Source: a virus. Taken from it: 64,000 nucleotides of DNA. Location: the IMG/VR virus record IMGVR_UViG_3300044613_002638, positions 1-64,000 of that record; one strand, written 5' to 3'. The position numbers and the translations under genes are program-made. The notes beneath the pieces are model-generated. The model did not search any database and was not told where the DNA came from. It saw only the letters and a list, made by a program, of their open reading frames with translations. Below, piece after piece: positions 34,847 to 40,051 of this stretch. Numbering within the stretch: the stretch's first letter is position 1; each line of letters opens with the position of its first letter.

Positions 34847-35538
34847 AATTTAGACACACTAAGTTTTGGCAGAACTACGAAAAATTTGACAAAATAGTTG
34901 GTAATTCTTCAATGAGATGCACAATAGATGCTATCATTTATTGGAAACTGTTTCAACATTTTACGTTTAATAAAATTTTAGAGATTGGCGTTTACCAAGG
35001 ACTAACATCTGGTCTGATGCTTGAGAGTAGTAATGCAAATCTGATTGGTGTTGATCATTATTTAAAACTGGATGTATTTAATTCTGTTTTTAAAGATTCT
35101 GCTGATCGGGCCACATTTATAAGTAGTACAAGTCAAGACTTTAGTACTACAGAAACATTTGATTTTATATTAATTGATGGAGACCATGCCGTTGATATAG
35201 CCTATCAAGACATAGTAAAATTTACACCTCTTCTATCTCGAACAGGTATTTTAGCAATAGATGACTACAACGAGGTACTAGTGCCAAAAACTGTACACAA
35301 ACTTCGCTCGTTAGGATTAGTTCCAATGATTCAAGCCGAGCAAACAGAATTTTGGCATTACCCAGATCAAGATCGATCAGCATTTTTAGATAATTTGTTG
35401 GTTGATAAAATCAGTCAACTTATTTTATTATACAACATTGATTTACATCATTGCACTGTACTAAAAGCTAAAACAGTTAAGGCATTCACCGACAATATAG
35501 AGTTATTTGACAGAGCGTTGGAACTATACGATGTTTAA
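34843..35538 (+). CDS. Class I SAM-dependent methyltransferase (Methyltransf_24-like)
   Basis: ILEIGVYQG, FDFILIDGDH, G.LAIDDY. Confidence 0.85.
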   Translation: MKFRHTKFWQNYEKFDKIVGNSSMRCTIDAIIYWKLFQHFTFNKILEIGVYQGLTSGLMLESSNANLIGVDHYLKLDVFNSVFKDSADRATFISSTSQDFSTTETFDFILIDGDHAVDIAYQDIVKFTPLLSRTGILAIDDYNEVLVPKTVHKLRSLGLVPMIQAEQTEFWHYPDQDRSAFLDNLLVDKISQLILLYNIDLHHCTVLKAKTVKAFTDNIELFDRALELYDV

Positions 35539-37300
35539 AATTAAAACACTAGCAGTTAAAAACTTCATGAGTGTAGGAAATGCCACTCAGGCTGTTCAGT
35601 TTGATCGTAGAGATCTTACTCTAGTACTAGGACAAAATTTAGATCTAGGCGGAGACGACACAGGAGCCAGAAATGGAACTGGCAAAACAACCATTATTAA
35701 TGCACTAAGCTATGCGCTGTATGGATCTGCTCTAACTAATATCAAAAAAGATAATCTTATCAATAAAACCAATGGCAAGAACATGTTGGTTACCATTGAG
35801 TTCGAAAAAGATGGTATTGACTACAGAATCGAGCGTGGTCGTAAACCCAACACAATGGCATTCTATGTGGGCGGCCAAGAACAACAAATCACCGACGAAA
35901 GTCAAGGTGATAGTAGAGAAACACAGGCAGAAATTGAACGTATGCTTGGAATGAGTCACGACATGTTCAAACACATTGTGGCCCTTAACACTTATACAGA
36001 ACCGTTTTTAGCATTGAAGGCCAATGATCAACGAACTATCATTGAACAGTTGCTTGGTATTACTATGCTGAGTGAAAAGGCTGACGCACTCAAAGAGCAA
36101 TTAAAAGCCACCAAAGACGCTATTATACAAGAAGAATATCGTATCAAAGCAGTTACAGATGCAAACGGCCGTATACAAGAGCAAATTGAAGCCACACGGC
36201 GTAGACAAAATCTATGGAGAAATAAACAAGTAAATGAGTTAATAGAACTTGAACGAGCCTTAGAAGTTGTAGGCGATTTAGATATTGATCAAGAATTGCT
36301 CAATCATGACCTATTAGAAGAATACAATACCAAAACAAATAAACGTAAAGAAATATCTAAATGGCAGGTTGCATGTGAGTCAGAACAAGTGCGACTGTTA
36401 AAACAATTAGATAAACTAAAGTCTGAAATTGAAAAATTAGAAAAACATGAATGCTATGCCTGCGGTCAGGCAATTCATGACAGCAAACATGAGGAAGTAC
36501 TAGAAGAAAAACGTAATACACTAAAAGAAACTAGTTTACAATATCTTGCCAATGATACACAGCTAGCCGAGCATGTTGCGGCACTGGCACTTGTTGGTGA
36601 CCCAGGGAAACCCCCTAAGGTATTTTATGACAACAAAGAAGATGCTATCAATCATAAAAATACTGTGGCAAACTTGCGTCAACAACTAGAAACAAAACAA
36701 GCGGAAGTGGATCCTTATGAAGAACAGATTCGCGAAATGGAAACACAGGCGCTCGAAGAAATAAATTACGACTTAATTAATGAACTTGTTAACGTTCGAG
36801 AACATCAAGAGTTCTTGCTTAAACTATTAACCAACAAAGATAGTTTTATACGTAAACGTATCATTGATCAAAACTTATCATATCTAAACGCTAGACTAAG
36901 TCAGTATCTAGATCGTATTGGCTTGCCACACACTGTCAAGTTTCAAAATGATTTGACTGTCAGCATTGAAGAATTAGGACGCGAGTTAGATTTTGATAAT
37001 CTAAGTCGCGGCGAACGTAATAGATTGATTCTAAGTTTATCGTGGGCATTTAGAGATGTGTGGGAAAGTTTATACCAACCTATCAACTTGCTATTCATTG
37101 ACGAAGTTATTGATACCGGTATGGATAGCTCGGGTGTTGAAAATAGTTTGGCAATACTAAAGAAAATGTCACGTGAAGGTAATAGATCAGTCTGGTTAGT
37201 ATCACACAAAGACGAACTGGCTGGTCGTGTTAATAATGTATTGAGTGTGATCAAAGAAAATGGATTTACTAGCTACAATACGGACGTGGAAATAAAATGA
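35531..37300 (+). CDS. gp46: Recombination ATPase subunit (Rad50/SbcC-like)
   Basis: KNFMSVGN, Walker A NGTGKTT, zinc hook CYAC, signature LSRGE, Walker B FIDE, SH; ATG at 35531. Confidence 0.92.
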   Translation: MFKIKTLAVKNFMSVGNATQAVQFDRRDLTLVLGQNLDLGGDDTGARNGTGKTTIINALSYALYGSALTNIKKDNLINKTNGKNMLVTIEFEKDGIDYRIERGRKPNTMAFYVGGQEQQITDESQGDSRETQAEIERMLGMSHDMFKHIVALNTYTEPFLALKANDQRTIIEQLLGITMLSEKADALKEQLKATKDAIIQEEYRIKAVTDANGRIQEQIEATRRRQNLWRNKQVNELIELERALEVVGDLDIDQELLNHDLLEEYNTKTNKRKEISKWQVACESEQVRLLKQLDKLKSEIEKLEKHECYACGQAIHDSKHEEVLEEKRNTLKETSLQYLANDTQLAEHVAALALVGDPGKPPKVFYDNKEDAINHKNTVANLRQQLETKQAEVDPYEEQIREMETQALEEINYDLINELVNVREHQEFLLKLLTNKDSFIRKRIIDQNLSYLNARLSQYLDRIGLPHTVKFQNDLTVSIEELGRELDFDNLSRGERNRLILSLSWAFRDVWESLYQPINLLFIDEVIDTGMDSSGVENSLAILKKMSREGNRSVWLVSHKDELAGRVNNVLSVIKENGFTSYNTDVEIK

Positions 37301-37827
37301 AAATTGGAATTACTGGACATAGTCGTGGCCTAGGATTGGCCCTTGCTAATAAGTTATCTGCTAATAATCAAATAATTGGTTTTAGTAGATCTAATGGCTA
37401 TAACATTGCACATGTACATGAAATAATTAAGGATGCTCTAGATTGCGATATGTTTATCAATAACGCCTATAACAACTATTATCAAAGCGATTTATTATTA
37501 TATCTATTTAGATTGTGGCAAGATAATCCAAATAAATCTATTGTGAATATAGGAAGCACTGTAACTACATATCCAAGAATTGAAACGGAAATAGATCATT
37601 TACCTTGGGCATACCGTGATCATAAAATTGCATTAGAACGTTTATTTAGACACTTAGTTAAACAAACACATAAATGTCACATGTTGCTTGTAGCACCAGG
37701 TGCCATTGATACAGACATGATAGCACATCATAATGGTATAAAAGCGTCGGCAGACCAGGTAGCTGATATTATAATTGATGCAATATCTAAACCATTAATT
37801 AAAGAAATTACCATCTATGAACAATAG
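37297..37827 (+). CDS. Short-chain dehydrogenase/reductase
   Basis: ITGHSRGLG, INNA, NIGS, YRDHK (YxxxK), PG.IDT. Confidence 0.85.
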   Translation: MKIGITGHSRGLGLALANKLSANNQIIGFSRSNGYNIAHVHEIIKDALDCDMFINNAYNNYYQSDLLLYLFRLWQDNPNKSIVNIGSTVTTYPRIETEIDHLPWAYRDHKIALERLFRHLVKQTHKCHMLLVAPGAIDTDMIAHHNGIKASADQVADIIIDAISKPLIKEITIYEQ

Positions 37828-38938
37828 ATATGGGTTTCAATTTTATCATTGGCATCTAGAACCCAGTTCTAGATGTACACTCAAATGCCCTAGATGTCCT
37901 CGAGAAGAAATGTCTAAAAATATTCCTTGGCTACAGAAAGATATCTCCCTTGAATTATTTCAAAAAGTGTTCAGTGAAGATATGTTGAAAACACAAGTCA
38001 AAAGAATTACTATGTGCGGAGATGTGGGCGATCCTATTTACTGTCGAGACTTTTTAAAAATTTGCAGCTATATTAAACAAGTTAACTCTAATATTCACAT
38101 TTATACAATTACCAATGGCAGCTACAAAAACCAAGACTGGTGGACAGAATTAGGAAAAATATTAAACGAACGCGATACTGTTGCATTCAGTATTGATGGT
38201 TATGATAACGCTAGTAATAATTTATATAGAGTGAATAGCAACTGGGAAAGTATTATTACAGGGGTAACCACGTTAACTGCTATGCGCAGGGCACATGTCA
38301 CATGGGCCACAATTGTTTTTGCATTTAATCAGGACCATTTGGAACACATCGAAGATTTAGCCAGATCCCTCAATTGTGATAGTTTACAAATCACAAAAAG
38401 TATTAAATTTGGATCAAGGTTTGAATCCTATATGACAGATAACAATTTTGATGCTTTAGAACCCCGACCAGAACATGTGAGTCAAAGCGGAAGATACGAA
38501 AGATATAGTGTACAACTAAGCAATCGTTTGATAGACAACACAGATTATTTAGAAACGAACCAGGTGCTTTGGCAACGAACAGTTGAAGAATACAAAAACA
38601 AATATGTTATTCCTTTGTGTCTAATAGGAAATAGAGGATTATATTTAAACGCTGCTGGACAACTTTATCCTTGTAGTTGGGTAGCTGCCCCGCACTTGGG
38701 CAGACATAGTCCAGTCACCGGAAAAAATTTAAAACTAGAAGATAGTTTATTTAGAAAATACGAGCACTTGTTTGATACACACAATCGTACTCTTGAAGAA
38801 ATTATTAACGATCCTGTTTGGGAAAAATTGTTTCAAAGTTGGAACAAGCGTGAAAATTCATTCATTGAGTGCGAGGAAAAATGCATAAGCAATCAAGTTG
38901 AAAAGTCGAATTACAGTGTAGGATATTTAACAAACTGA
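37817..38938 (+). CDS. Radical SAM protein with SPASM/twitch-type C-terminus
   Basis: CTLKCPRC, GDP, TNG, FSIDG; C-terminal C...G.LYPC.W...CEEKC. Confidence 0.88.
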   Translation: MNNRYGFQFYHWHLEPSSRCTLKCPRCPREEMSKNIPWLQKDISLELFQKVFSEDMLKTQVKRITMCGDVGDPIYCRDFLKICSYIKQVNSNIHIYTITNGSYKNQDWWTELGKILNERDTVAFSIDGYDNASNNLYRVNSNWESIITGVTTLTAMRRAHVTWATIVFAFNQDHLEHIEDLARSLNCDSLQITKSIKFGSRFESYMTDNNFDALEPRPEHVSQSGRYERYSVQLSNRLIDNTDYLETNQVLWQRTVEEYKNKYVIPLCLIGNRGLYLNAAGQLYPCSWVAAPHLGRHSPVTGKNLKLEDSLFRKYEHLFDTHNRTLEEIINDPVWEKLFQSWNKRENSFIECEEKCISNQVEKSNYSVGYLTN

Positions 38939-38976: not shown

Positions 38977-39411
38977 ATGTCATGGCTATTCGAGTCCACA
39001 CCGGTGGAATCACTTCCTGAAGATTGCGTTGGATTTGTGTATTTGATAACAAATACTGTATCTGGGCGCAAATATATAGGAAAAAAACTAGCCAAATTTT
39101 CAAAAACTACAGTAAAAACAGTAAAACTTAAAAACGGTACTAAAAAGAAAAAGAAGATCAGAAGCAAAATAGACAGCGATTGGCAACTATATTATGGCTC
39201 AAATGACGAACTTAAAAAAGACATACACACACTAGGCCCAGAGAAATTTACTAGACAAATACTATATTACTGTAAATCAAAAGCAGAATGTTCATATATT
39301 GAAGCAAGAGAACAATTCCGACACCAAGTCTTAGAATCAGATGATTATTATAACGGACATATACAAGTCCGTGTCCATGGCTCTCACATAAAAAACAAGT
39401 TAGGCAGTTAA
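38977..39411 (+). CDS. Small GIY-YIG endonuclease (T4 EndoII/Seg-like catalytic domain only)
   Basis: GFVY(X)..KYIGKK, YYGS, conserved E, YYN; Lys-rich insertion; no C-terminal DNA-binding repeats. Confidence 0.85.
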   Translation: MSWLFESTPVESLPEDCVGFVYLITNTVSGRKYIGKKLAKFSKTTVKTVKLKNGTKKKKKIRSKIDSDWQLYYGSNDELKKDIHTLGPEKFTRQILYYCKSKAECSYIEAREQFRHQVLESDDYYNGHIQVRVHGSHIKNKLGS

Positions 39412-39815
39412 GCTAGCACAGGCTAACATCGTGTGCCCTAGACCTGGTTGAAACATATGCAGGGACGGAAGCCTTCTCGCTGCAAGAAGCACTCAACTAC
39501 TACCCGCAAGGATGAAGATCGCAAACGCCGCGATTTAGTTGTTTGAATAGGATAACATGGCTAAAAAGACGTACTAGCGATAGTACACGTTTGCAATGCA
39601 GGCTGATATTTGTATTGTAAACCGCCGTTGTATAAAGACGGAGCTCGAGGTACCGGACAACCGCCTCTGTAATGCTCTAATATCAGTGACTGTGCTACTC
39701 AGATGAAGTCATACTTTTGCCCGCCCTGGGCAAAGAGTGACCAATTAATCTAGATGAAATCTAAAAAACAAATTGATGAGCGTAAGCGAAATCAATAGAC
39801 TAACGAAGTTAGTCT
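39412..39815 (+). ncRNA. Candidate large structured non-coding RNA (family not recognised)
   Basis: Longest gene-free gap in the window, more GC-rich than flanks; closing helix 39414-21/39690-97, about 10 internal helices, GNRA loops, G-U pairs on + strand, 9-bp pseudoknot 39602-10/39679-87. Confidence 0.65.
39797..39815. terminator. Hairpin between convergent transcription units
   Basis: agactaac-gaa-gttagtct, abutting the stop codon of the minus-strand ORF. Confidence 0.45.
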
Positions 39816-40051
39816 TAAAAGAATGGCATTCCAGACTTTTTAGCAGTTTCTAAATTGTCTTTTACAATTTCACTTATGATCTTTCGATCTTCAAAGCCAA
39901 GTAACATGGCTTCATCATAGGTAATACCGCCGCGCATGTACCAGCAGAATCTTAATATTTCGTCTTTAATTTTTCTTACTTGATTTTCGTAGCTCTTAAC
40001 TAAACCTAGAATGCCGTTGGTGTCGAGTGTTAAGAGCTGCTGGCGAAAAAA
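39815..40051 (-). CDS. gp51-like/tail chaperone C-terminal extension, probably reached by -1 frameshift from the gp26-like gene; not in ORF track
   Basis: Open -1 frame FFRQQLLTLDTNGILGLVKSYENQVRKIKDEILRFCWYMRGGITYDEAM...KSGMPFF*; no ATG/GTG/TTG for the first 38 codons. Confidence 0.7.
   Translation of the reverse strand, partial: FFRQQLLTLDTNGILGLVKSYENQVRKIKDEILRFCWYMRGGITYDEAMLLGFEDRKIISEIVKDNLETAKKSGMPFF

What the first reader, a model, noticed from the sequence alone, without database searches (positions are those of the whole stretch)
38977..39815. Minimal GIY-YIG nuclease followed immediately by a ~400-nt pseudoknotted structured RNA candidate
Seen: the only long gene-free stretch starts at the nuclease stop codon. 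Pairings: closing helix tagcacag 39414-21 with ctgtgcta 39690-97; cctg/cagg flanked by GA pairs; cttct/agaag; caacta 39494-99 with tagttg 39536-41 enclosing cc-GCAA-gg and agatcgc/gcgattt; gtacta-GCGA-tagtac; a 12-bp stem 39589-600/39611-22 with two G-U pairs, whose loop gctgatatt pairs with aatatcagt 39679-87 (pseudoknot); ccgt/acgg; gagc/gctc enclosing gagg/cctc and cgg/ccg; then tttgccc/gggcaaa. The G-U pairs and GNRA loops point to a + strand RNA. It lacks tRNA, tmRNA, RNase P and group I/II hallmarks. The nuclease is a bare catalytic domain with a basic insertion (KTTVKTVKLKNGTKKKKKIRSK). Inference: a new large phage ncRNA, possibly forming a ribonucleoprotein with the nuclease, by analogy to IscB/TnpB partner RNAs. 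Caveat: T4 EndoII is similarly small and needs no RNA.
Basis: partly seen in the sequence, partly recalled or inferred. Interest (0 to 1): 0.85.

Follow-up and report, generated by a model that had tools for sequence, protein, structure and literature searches.

The report
Full-length twin-box Polynucleobacter-1 phage RNA
The gene-free stretch behind a small nuclease gene of this uncultured T4-like freshwater phage encodes a real, about 405-base, multiply knotted non-coding RNA; its first third is the catalogued but unexplained Polynucleobacter-1 motif, its uncatalogued core carries one fast-changing 7-letter word twice, and the nuclease looks like a neighbour, not a partner.

Summary
Window 39411-39815 (+) is a structured RNA gene. 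A 91-pair model including three pseudoknots is 93.6% paired across 98 homologues, with compensatory changes at 72 pairs.

It is not wholly new. Positions 39411-39544 are Rfam RF01718 (Polynucleobacter-1 RNA, 106 bits; Weinberg 2010). That paper already noted a conserved upstream gene family. Earlier follow-ups in this scan reached the same 'twin-box RNA' reading on other genomes.

Its long-range closing helix, ccgt/acgg and cgg/ccg are not.

The uncatalogued 3' two-thirds is the conserved core. Two boxes about 51 nt apart (GUGAC...AYYY + 7-mer) are identical to each other in 97 of 98 sequences, across 9 variants. The same holds in a second phage type and in a bacterial version.

The nuclease is a conserved SegE-like GIY-YIG gene at a syntenic position. 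Its relatives occur in 473 cultured-phage records, and the four loci examined have no room for the RNA. The RNA also occurs behind a PD-(D/E)XK nuclease, behind accessory genes, and in Burkholderiales islands beside a tyrosine recombinase.

The best reading is an autonomous mobile-element RNA with two equivalent binding sites. A guide/RNP reading is about 5% likely.

The parts
38977..39411 (+). Small GIY-YIG nuclease gene (144 aa; PF19835 SegE_GIY-YIG, phrog_447). Catalytic domain only, with a long basic beta-hairpin at residues 40-66.
   Evidence: Pfam E 1e-33. PHROG E 6e-38. AlphaFold model pLDDT 84; best PDB fold is the I-TevI catalytic domain, prob 0.93, TM 0.62.
39411..39815 (+). Full-length structured non-coding RNA (about 405 nt): the 'twin-box' or extended Polynucleobacter-1 RNA.
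   Evidence: nhmmer finds full-length homologues in more than 100 loci. A 91-pair model is 93.6% paired with 0/500 shuffles as good.
39411..39544 (+). 5' domain, equal to Rfam RF01718 Polynucleobacter-1 RNA. It contains P1 39416-20/39432-36, P2 39444-50/39454-62, P3 39473-77/39485-89, P4 39494-99/39536-41 with inner hairpins 39504-05/39510-11 and 39517-22/39530-35, and a small pseudoknot 39411-13/39422-24.
   Evidence: cmscan 106.2 bits, model positions 1-141 of 141. Helices 1-7 are 91-100% paired with double changes.
39571..39586 (+). Hairpin Pa (gtacta/tagtac, GNRA-type loop).
   Evidence: Helix 8 is 97.9% paired and all 4 counted pairs show changes on both sides.
39589..39622 (+). 12-bp hairpin Pb. 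Its loop (39603-09) forms pseudoknot PK1.
   Evidence: Helix 11: all 12 pairs show double changes and many G-U pairs.
39680..39686 (+). 3' strand of pseudoknot PK1, pairing with the Pb loop 39603-09.
   Evidence: Helix 12 is 94.3% paired. Four central pairs have no unpaired cell and covary between GC and AU.
39627..39661 (+). Pseudoknot PK2: 39627-31 (GUUGU) pairs with 39657-61 (ACAAC) in the loop of the GGUACCGG..AACCGCC hairpin.
   Evidence: Helix 13 is 99.2% paired. Pair variants include GUUGU/ACAAC, GUCGU/ACGAC and GUCAU/AUGAC.
39641..39677 (+). Helices Pc (39641-44/39674-77) and Pd (39647-50/39664-67), enclosing the invariant GGUACCGG..AACCGCC element.
   Evidence: Helices 14 and 15 are 96-97% paired with double changes.
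39685..39707 (+). Twin box A: AGUGAC, a 6-nt linker, then ACUC followed by the 7-mer AGAUGAA (39701-07).
   Evidence: The 7-mer equals that of box B in 97/98 sequences, with 9 variants. It avoids complementarity within the RNA.
39716..39734 (+). Hairpin Pe between the two boxes (uuugccc/gggcaaa).
   Evidence: Helix 16 is 94.6% paired. Type-2 and bacterial forms carry different hairpins at this place.
39736..39758 (+). Twin box B: AGUGAC, a 6-nt linker, then AUCU followed by the 7-mer AGAUGAA (39752-58).
   Evidence: The A-to-B offset is 51 nt here and 47-65 nt in relatives.
39774..39794 (+). Hairpin Pf with a GA/GAA internal loop and a GNRA loop (39774-77/39791-94; 39780-81/39786-87).
   Evidence: Helices 17 and 18 show double changes at all pairs. 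The hairpin is also conserved in the bacterial version.
39798..39814 (+). Terminal hairpin Pg. It is the likely 3' end of the RNA and possibly a shared terminator with the converging minus-strand gene.
   Evidence: Helices 19 and 20 are 95-97% paired with double changes. A terminator-like site is called on the minus strand.

Best explanation
Window 39411-39815 (+) encodes the full-length form of the Polynucleobacter-1 RNA family. It is an autonomous, highly folded non-coding RNA carried by mobile elements: T4-like freshwater giant phages and small integrative islands of freshwater Burkholderiales.

Shown:
- The RNA is real, lies on the + strand and is about 405 nt long.
- It has a 5' domain (RF01718) that can be swapped for an unrelated domain in related phages.
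- It has a conserved core with pseudoknots PK1 and PK2, the invariant GGUACCGG..AACCGCC element, two identical boxes flanking a hairpin, and two 3' hairpins.

Inferred:
- In this phage the RNA is made as the 3' part of the nuclease gene's transcript, or from an unrecognised phage promoter, and acts in trans.
- The two boxes are single-stranded, accessible and equivalent docking sites. They bind two copies, or two identical surfaces, of one partner. Selection keeps them identical while the word itself drifts.
- The GIY-YIG protein is a conserved DNA-metabolism nuclease of the recombination-gene neighbourhood (beside the gp46-like SbcC gene). It is a fixed neighbour, not a required partner.
- The identity of the partner, and therefore the biological role, is not known.
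For: - RF01718 match at 106 bits.
- Full-length conservation in more than 100 viral loci.
- 91-pair structure: 93.6% paired, 72 pairs with double changes, 0/500 shuffles as good, slid controls 36-42% paired.
- G-U 502 against A-C 131 cells in helices.
- Twin 7-mers identical in 97/98 type-1 sequences with 9 variants. They are also identical in every type-2 sequence read by eye (8), which adds 3 variants, four more being matched by the parser. In bacterial copies the first six letters are identical in 21 of 23 parsed copies.
- The boxes have weaker cis complementarity than shuffled boxes (-5.3 against -6.4 kcal/mol) and no covarying complementary column.
- Independence from the nuclease: a syntenic block; the protein family occurs in 473 cultured-phage records, and the four inspected have no space for the RNA; other genes are inserted between the two; a PD-(D/E)XK gene replaces the nuclease in L158, L184 and L188; bacterial copies have no GIY-YIG; there is no box-protein coupling.
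- Mobile-element character: RF01718 is over the cut-off in only 2 of 151 genomes of the host family (a third shows a weak match), with up to 2 copies per genome. It lies in a roughly 6-kb island bounded by a 424-aa integrase.
Against: - Expression, RNA ends and processing are therefore unproven.
- No partner was found.
- A protein partner would not obviously force the two boxes to stay identical at freely varying positions.
- A trans nucleic-acid partner would need three-way co-change, yet the first box letter flips between close relatives.
- The tight spacing (3-55 nt) between nuclease stop and RNA start in 80 of the 90 pattern-found RNA loci with upstream sequence remains compatible with a functional link.
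Confidence: 0.55

Rival explanations
1. RNA partner or guide for minimal DNA-cutting enzymes. The RNA supplies target recognition to enzymes that lack a DNA-binding domain: GIY-YIG or PD-(D/E)XK in phages, and a catalytic-domain-only tyrosine recombinase in the islands. The twin boxes pair with two identical target sequences, such as the two arms of an inverted repeat.
For: The gene next to the RNA is a small DNA-cleaving enzyme in all three settings:
- a 144-aa GIY-YIG directly upstream in 80 of the 90 pattern-found RNA loci with upstream sequence;
- PF24608 PDDEXK_15 directly upstream in the three loci without it;
- a 188-aa Phage_integrase catalytic domain downstream in bacterial islands.

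The boxes are accessible and change quickly.
Against: - The GIY-YIG family is common in cultured T4-like phages, and the four loci inspected have no room for the RNA.
- Accessory genes split the pair.
- There is no covariation between boxes and protein.
- The boxes are only 7 nt and are identical to each other.
- No hypervariable terminal guide is present.
- No complementary or extra box sites stand out in two complete genomes.
- Integrases are ordinary island genes, and a full-length integrase is also present.
Confidence: 0.05
2. The two boxes contact each other directly, within one molecule or between molecules of an RNA-only assembly such as those reported for ROOL, GOLLD and OLE. The contact would be like-with-like, non-Watson-Crick pairing. 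The RNA would then be a self-assembling or catalytic RNA that needs no sequence-matched partner.
For: - Only two sites need to change together. This fits lock-step flips between close relatives and the absence of any third covarying site.
- The upstream GUGAC boxes also change in parallel, A to G in both.
- The RNA is large and ornate with many invariant unpaired nucleotides.
- Cryo-EM of other large orphan RNAs found homo-oligomers (abstract of 10.1101/2024.12.08.627333, listed).
Against: - Stretches of like-with-like pairs of this length are, to my knowledge, not established in natural RNAs.
- The four letters before each box differ constantly (ACUC against AUCU).
- The box spacing varies from 47 to 65 nt.
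- There is no structural or biochemical test.
Confidence: 0.12
3. A cis-acting 3' untranslated element of the nuclease mRNA, acting in stability, termination or translational control.
For: The RNA starts at the stop codon. No conserved promoter is seen upstream. Both features lie on the same strand.
Against: - The same RNA follows unrelated genes: GDSL-like genes, 330-aa genes, QSregVF_b and PDDEXK.
- In bacteria it stands alone, next to a divergently transcribed gene.
- 405 nt with three pseudoknots is far more than such a role needs.
Confidence: 0.07
4. A DNA-level or primer function. The region would be a replication origin whose structured transcript primes DNA synthesis, with the twin boxes acting as iteron-like initiator sites.
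For: - Direct repeats that are identical within an element but differ between relatives are the signature of iterons (general knowledge).
- The locus lies beside baseplate genes, as T4 oriF does (general knowledge, not tested here).
- The bacterial island carries an AAA+ protein resembling a clamp loader or initiator.
Against: - RNA-type compensatory changes with a strong G-U excess run along the whole element.
- There are only two repeats.
- Their spacing is not phased (47-65 nt).
- No AT-rich unwinding tract is seen here.
Confidence: 0.07
5. A template RNA with repeated ends for reiterative copying, as in telomerase or DRT-type systems. The product of box A would re-anneal on box B, which would force the two to be identical.
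For: This explains identity with only two co-changing sites. It resembles the telomerase-like tandem-repeat DNA synthesis reported for DRT10 (abstract of 10.64898/2026.06.29.735271, listed).
Against: - No RVT_1 reverse transcriptase is found in this record or in five other phage records that carry the RNA. Two of these are 100% complete.
- None is seen in the bacterial islands.
- The repeat unit shows no 3-nt periodicity.
Confidence: 0.03

Closest known systems
Polynucleobacter-1 RNA motif (Rfam RF01718; Weinberg et al. 2010, Genome Biol 11:R31, PMC2864571)
   Same: Window 39411-39544 matches the whole 141-position model at 106 bits. The helices are the same, the habitat is the same (fresh water, Burkholderiales) and the RNA follows a conserved gene family, as that paper reported.
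   Different: - The Rfam model covers only the first third.
- The conserved core (two further pseudoknots, twin boxes, 3' hairpins) is not in the model.
- A second phage type keeps the core but has another 5' domain with no RF01718 hit.
- In 2010 the motif was not seen in sequenced purified phages. Here it is shown in more than 100 viral contigs, including complete 350-kb genomes. It is still absent from cultured-phage records.
HEARO / IscB omega-RNA and TnpB reRNA (RNA partners of transposon nucleases)
   Same: A large structured RNA lies directly beside a small nuclease gene of a mobile element, starting at the ORF end as TnpB reRNA does.
   Different: - There is no obligatory co-occurrence.
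- The nuclease fold is different (GIY-YIG).
- There is no terminal variable guide.
- There are no transposon ends.
- The variable parts are two identical internal 7-mers.
Seg-type free-standing GIY-YIG homing endonucleases of T4 (SegE) and the I-TevI catalytic domain
   Same: Pfam SegE_GIY-YIG domain. The best structural match is the I-TevI catalytic domain.
   Different: There is no C-terminal DNA-binding domain. The gene sits at a conserved syntenic place and is 68-95% identical across the clade. It therefore behaves as a resident phage gene, not a sporadic homing gene.
Large orphan bacterial and phage RNAs (GOLLD, ROOL, OLE, raiA)
   Same: It is large, pseudoknotted and full of invariant unpaired nucleotides. 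It is carried by phages and mobile elements, and its function is unknown.
   Different: There is no sequence or model match to any of them. The twin identical boxes have no described counterpart in those RNAs as far as I know.

Membership tests
Rfam RF01718 Polynucleobacter-1 RNA | Covariance-model score at or above the curated gathering score, over the whole model | tested here: met
   106.2 bits against 37; model positions 1-141 of 141; E 5e-22
Rfam RF01718 Polynucleobacter-1 RNA | The model's helices are kept by compensatory changes in relatives | tested here: met
   Helices 1-7 are 91-100% paired with double changes
Rfam RF01718 Polynucleobacter-1 RNA | Location downstream of the GOS11034 / PSSM2_218-like gene family (Weinberg 2010 supplement) | not testable with these tools
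   The upstream gene is phrog_447/PF19835, with many cyanophage homologues.
GIY-YIG nuclease superfamily (PF19835 SegE_GIY-YIG) | Profile match over the catalytic domain | tested here: met
   E 1e-33; residues 3-129 against profile positions 1-123 of 123
GIY-YIG nuclease superfamily (PF19835 SegE_GIY-YIG) | GIY and YIG tyrosines and the conserved Arg, Glu and Asn of the active site | tested here: inconclusive
   Y22, Y33, R111, E109, E112 and N126 are invariant in 37 relatives. No residue-by-residue superposition on I-TevI was made.
GIY-YIG nuclease superfamily (PF19835 SegE_GIY-YIG) | GIY-YIG alpha/beta fold | tested here: met
   Model pLDDT 84. Top PDB hits are I-TevI catalytic domain 1mk0/1ln0, prob 0.90-0.93, TM 0.61-0.63, although E is only 0.17.
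Homing endonuclease gene (mobile, Seg-like) | Separate DNA-binding domain and sporadic, insertion-like distribution among close relatives | tested here: not met
   The 144-aa protein is the catalytic domain only. The gene is present at the same syntenic place, at 68-95% identity, in the fetched loci.
RNA-guided nuclease systems (IscB/TnpB with omega-RNA) | Protein and RNA always occur together | tested here: not met
   The protein occurs without the RNA in cultured phages. The RNA occurs without the protein.
RNA-guided nuclease systems (IscB/TnpB with omega-RNA) | A variable guide segment at one end of a conserved scaffold | tested here: not met
   Both ends are conserved helices. The only fast-changing parts are two identical internal 7-mers.
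Group I intron | Match to the intron core and insertion within a host gene whose exons join | tested here: not met
   No Intron_gpI hit even at E up to 10. The RNA lies between converging genes.
tRNA / tmRNA / RNase P RNA | Recognised by ARAGORN or the Rfam models | tested here: not met
   ARAGORN finds 0 genes in the window. There are no Rfam hits.
Box C/D or tigRNA-type dual-guide RNA | Invariant C (RUGAUGA) and D (CUGA) boxes forming k-turns, and variable guides between the boxes | tested here: not met
   The GAUGA-like word varies (GAUAA in about 30%, others in type 2, AGCGAAA in bacteria). The linkers are less variable than the boxes. A Nop-domain protein was not searched for.
Template RNA of a reverse transcriptase (telomerase/DRT-like) | A reverse transcriptase encoded with the RNA | tested here: not met
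   No RVT_1 in six phage records, two of them complete

The most novel reading that the evidence does not exclude
The twin-box core is a programmable adaptor that gives sequence specificity to domain-poor DNA enzymes of mobile elements: GIY-YIG or PD-(D/E)XK nucleases in giant phages, and a catalytic-domain-only tyrosine recombinase in Burkholderiales islands. The two identical boxes would pair with two identical DNA sites and bring them together. This would be an RNA-guided nuclease/recombinase principle unrelated to CRISPR, OMEGA or bridge RNAs.
Probability: 0.05. Interest if true: 0.95.

Novelty: new variant of a known kind. Interest (0 to 1): 0.6.

Why it matters
Large, intricately folded orphan RNAs are rare. 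Past examples (HEARO, OLE, ROOL, GOLLD) led to new biology once they were explained. This one is abundant in uncultured freshwater giant phages: at least 587 contigs carry the linked nuclease gene. It is also shared with small islands of Polynucleobacter and Limnohabitans, which I understand to be abundant lake bacteria.

Only a peripheral domain of it is in databases. The conserved core shows an unusual evolutionary signature: two distant 7-mers kept identical while the word itself changes. That signature gives a direct experimental handle (mutate one box against both) and points to a bivalent recognition event that is still unknown. For annotation, the finding shows that RF01718 should be extended, and that 'NAD synthetase' labels on phrog_447 genes are misnomers for a GIY-YIG nuclease.

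Tried and rejected
2. Known RNA classes for the 3' part: Rfam at E up to 10 and ARAGORN found nothing.
3. Cultured-phage homologues of the RNA: three blastn searches found none.
4. A cis partner for the boxes: mutual information, exact reverse complements in the RNA and in flanks up to several kb, linker complementarity and duplex energies gave no consistent site.
5. Stop-codon or ribosome-hop reading of the boxes: UGA/UAA holds only in type 1. It fails in type-2 and bacterial variants.
6. Neo-like repeat ORF: spacing is 47-65 nt with no excess of multiples of 3.
7. Reverse transcriptase: none found.
8. Dispersed copies of the boxed word in two complete genomes: counts are at control level.
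9. Coupling of box letters to nuclease residues: only clade markers appeared.
10. Hammerhead-like reading of UGAUGAGCG..GCGAAA at 39776-91: relatives lack the required core letters.
11. CsrA-type GGA sites: GGA is replaced by AGA in about 40% of sequences and is absent in bacteria.
A tRNA search of the whole record also failed.
13. Sequence search of the nuclease against solved structures: no relative found.
Full report
WHAT IS THERE

The window is part of a 107-kb IMG/VR virus record from a T4-like phage. The local gene order is:
- an SbcC/gp46-like gene (35507-37300);
- a short-chain dehydrogenase and a radical-SAM gene;
- a 144-aa ORF at 38977-39411;
- a gene-free stretch;
- on the minus strand, a 40-codon frame and a baseplate-hub gene (PF12322).

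The 144-aa ORF is a GIY-YIG protein (PF19835 SegE_GIY-YIG, E 1e-33; phrog_447, which carries the misleading label 'NAD synthetase'). An AlphaFold model (pLDDT 84) has the I-TevI catalytic domain as its best PDB match (prob 0.93).

THE RNA IS REAL, AND ITS FIRST THIRD IS ALREADY KNOWN

Rfam places 39411-39544 (+) in RF01718, Polynucleobacter-1 RNA, at 106 bits against a gathering score of 37, over the whole model. Nothing else in Rfam matches the remaining 270 nt, even at E up to 10. ARAGORN finds no tRNA or tmRNA.

The only paper in the library that names the motif is Weinberg et al. 2010. Its supplement makes three points (PMC2864571):
- the 3' half is not always detected;
- most copies lie downstream of one gene family with possible homology to a cyanophage P-SSM2 gene;
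- no copy was seen in any sequenced purified phage.

The flanks in that paper's Stockholm file already show downstream conservation.

EXTENT AND STRUCTURE

A single-sequence nhmmer search with 39411-39815 finds full-length homologues in more than 100 viral contigs. After de-duplication, 97 relatives at 60-89% identity were aligned with the window.

A 91-pair model was counted on that alignment:
- 93.6% of cells are paired.
- 72 pairs show changes on both sides.
- 0 of 500 shuffles reach the observed values.
- Slid controls are 36-42% paired.

G-U cells outnumber A-C cells 502 to 131, which sets the strand as +.

The model contains:
- the Rfam helices plus a small 5' pseudoknot (39411-13/39422-24);
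- hairpins Pa and Pb;
- helices Pc and Pd around the invariant GGUACCGG..AACCGCC element;
- hairpin Pe;
- an internal-loop hairpin Pf;
- a terminal hairpin Pg ending at 39814.

THE TWIN BOXES

Mutual information exposed column pairs exactly 51 nt apart that carry the same letter. They belong to two modules:
- box A, 39685-39707: AGUGAC, linker, ACUC, 7-mer;
- box B, 39736-39758: AGUGAC, linker, AUCU, 7-mer.

The two 7-mers are identical in 97 of 98 sequences, although nine different words occur: GGAUGAA, GGAUAAU, AGAUGAA, GGAUGAU, AGAUAAU, AGAUGAG, AGAUGAU, GCAUAAU and GGAUGAG. The A-to-G change in GUGAC is also shared between the modules.

Several tests constrain what the boxes might bind:
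- No complementary segment exists in the RNA or in the flanks.
- The boxes pair less well with the rest of the RNA than shuffled boxes do. I therefore take them to be exposed.
- Extra copies elsewhere in two complete genomes are at control level.
- Box spacing is 47-65 nt without 3-nt periodicity.
- No reverse transcriptase is encoded in six records, two of them complete.

An earlier first-reader note on this same genome had spotted the twin motif (e1-6019944). Earlier follow-ups on other genomes describe the same 'twin-box' RNA. My analysis was done independently before I read them, and it agrees.

THREE FORMS OF ONE FAMILY

Type 2 (phage). 27 nuclease-linked loci share only the core from about 39622 onward. 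They have a different, internally conserved 5' domain of roughly 200 nt with no RF01718 hit. Their boxes are again identical and add the words AGAUCAA, AGACGAA and ACAUGAA.

Bacterial form. A pattern taken from the published Polynucleobacter copies finds 27 loci in Polynucleobacter, Limnohabitans and other freshwater Burkholderiales genomes and MAGs.
- This version is longer but keeps the core and the 3' hairpins.
- Its boxes read ACUC/AUCU followed by AGCGAA, AGAGAA, GGAGAA, AUCGAA or AGCAAA. The first six letters match within each genome in 21 of 23 parsed copies.
- It has no GIY-YIG gene nearby.
- RF01718 is over the cut-off in only 2 of 151 genomes of the family (a third shows a weak match), and can occur twice in one genome.
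- In one Polynucleobacter genome it sits at the end of a roughly 6-kb island. The order is: housekeeping genes, DUF6641 (divergent), RNA, a 129-aa ORF, a 188-aa catalytic-domain-only tyrosine recombinase, two unknown genes, an AAA+ clamp-loader-like gene, a 424-aa integrase, then a helicase-nuclease.

The sixth letter of the box is A in every variant I saw. I could not turn this into a test.

IS THE NUCLEASE A PARTNER?

Points for a link:
- The nuclease ends 3-55 nt before the RNA in 80 of the 90 pattern-found RNA loci with upstream sequence.
- In the three loci without it, a different small nuclease (PF24608 PDDEXK_15) takes its place.
- In bacteria the neighbour is a minimal recombinase.

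Points against a link:
- The whole block from SbcC to the baseplate genes is syntenic across the clade, so adjacency is inherited.
- In 7 such loci, and in others found through the nuclease gene, unrelated accessory genes sit between nuclease and RNA.
- The protein family occurs in 473 cultured-phage records: Synechococcus, Prochlorococcus, Methylophilales, Sinorhizobium, Stenotrophomonas and others. In the four I opened, only 0-148 nt follow the gene.
- The box letters do not covary with nuclease residues beyond clade markers.

A simpler reading of the GIY-YIG to PD-(D/E)XK replacement is that both are the phage's structure-specific DNA nuclease, placed beside the recombination genes. This is inference.

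MOST LIKELY MECHANISM

I commit to an autonomous mobile-element RNA whose conserved core presents two equivalent, exposed sites for one partner. The 5' domain is an exchangeable accessory. The nuclease gene is a neighbour that probably supplies the promoter. The fold, the strand, the family, the twin-box identity and the independence from the nuclease are shown. Transcription, trans action and bivalent binding are inferred. Rival readings and their odds are listed separately. The guide/RNP reading keeps about 5%.

NOVELTY

This is a member of a catalogued orphan family, but the catalogued part is the peripheral domain. As far as the library and Rfam searches reach, these features are undescribed:
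- the full-length architecture;
- the twin boxes;
- the alternative 5' domain;
- the phage carriage;
- the island context in bacteria.

The scan has met the same RNA repeatedly on other DNA.

Noticed in passing
window 39815-40051 (minus strand): The 40-codon frame 39815-39937 after the baseplate-hub gene is conserved by tblastn in 113 related loci. It has no family match. Other first-reader notes propose that it is reached by a -1 frameshift from the gp26-like gene. I did not test that.
   Followed up: no
window 37297-38938, and the matching places in L002-L199: The space between the SbcC-like gene and the nuclease/RNA pair is a hot spot for variable accessory genes: radical SAM/SPASM, short-chain dehydrogenase, GDSL-like 265-276 aa, unknown 330-340 aa, and QSregVF_b-like 70-83 aa. 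The content differs from phage to phage.
   Followed up: partly
L072, L025, L045, L065, L070, L042 and 21 more loci (about 200 nt after the nuclease gene): A second RNA type keeps the twin-box core but has a different, conserved 5' domain that no Rfam model recognises. It deserves its own model.
   Followed up: partly
L204-L230; L234 11572-17757: Small (about 6 kb) islands in Polynucleobacter and Limnohabitans carry the bacterial form of the RNA with DUF6641, a 188-aa catalytic-only tyrosine recombinase, an AAA+ clamp-loader-like protein and a full-length integrase. They might be satellites of the T4-like phages that carry the related RNA.
   Followed up: partly
cultured-phage records, e.g. 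NC_028945.1 165973-166389 and NC_041997.1 9483-9905: Homologues of the GIY-YIG protein (phrog_447) are widely annotated as 'NAD synthetase' in RefSeq phage records. The Pfam and fold evidence says GIY-YIG nuclease.
   Followed up: partly
L184 8014-8223: In the divergent phages where a PD-(D/E)XK nuclease precedes the RNA, a 70-aa histone H1-like (PF07432 Hc1) protein is encoded just upstream.
   Followed up: no
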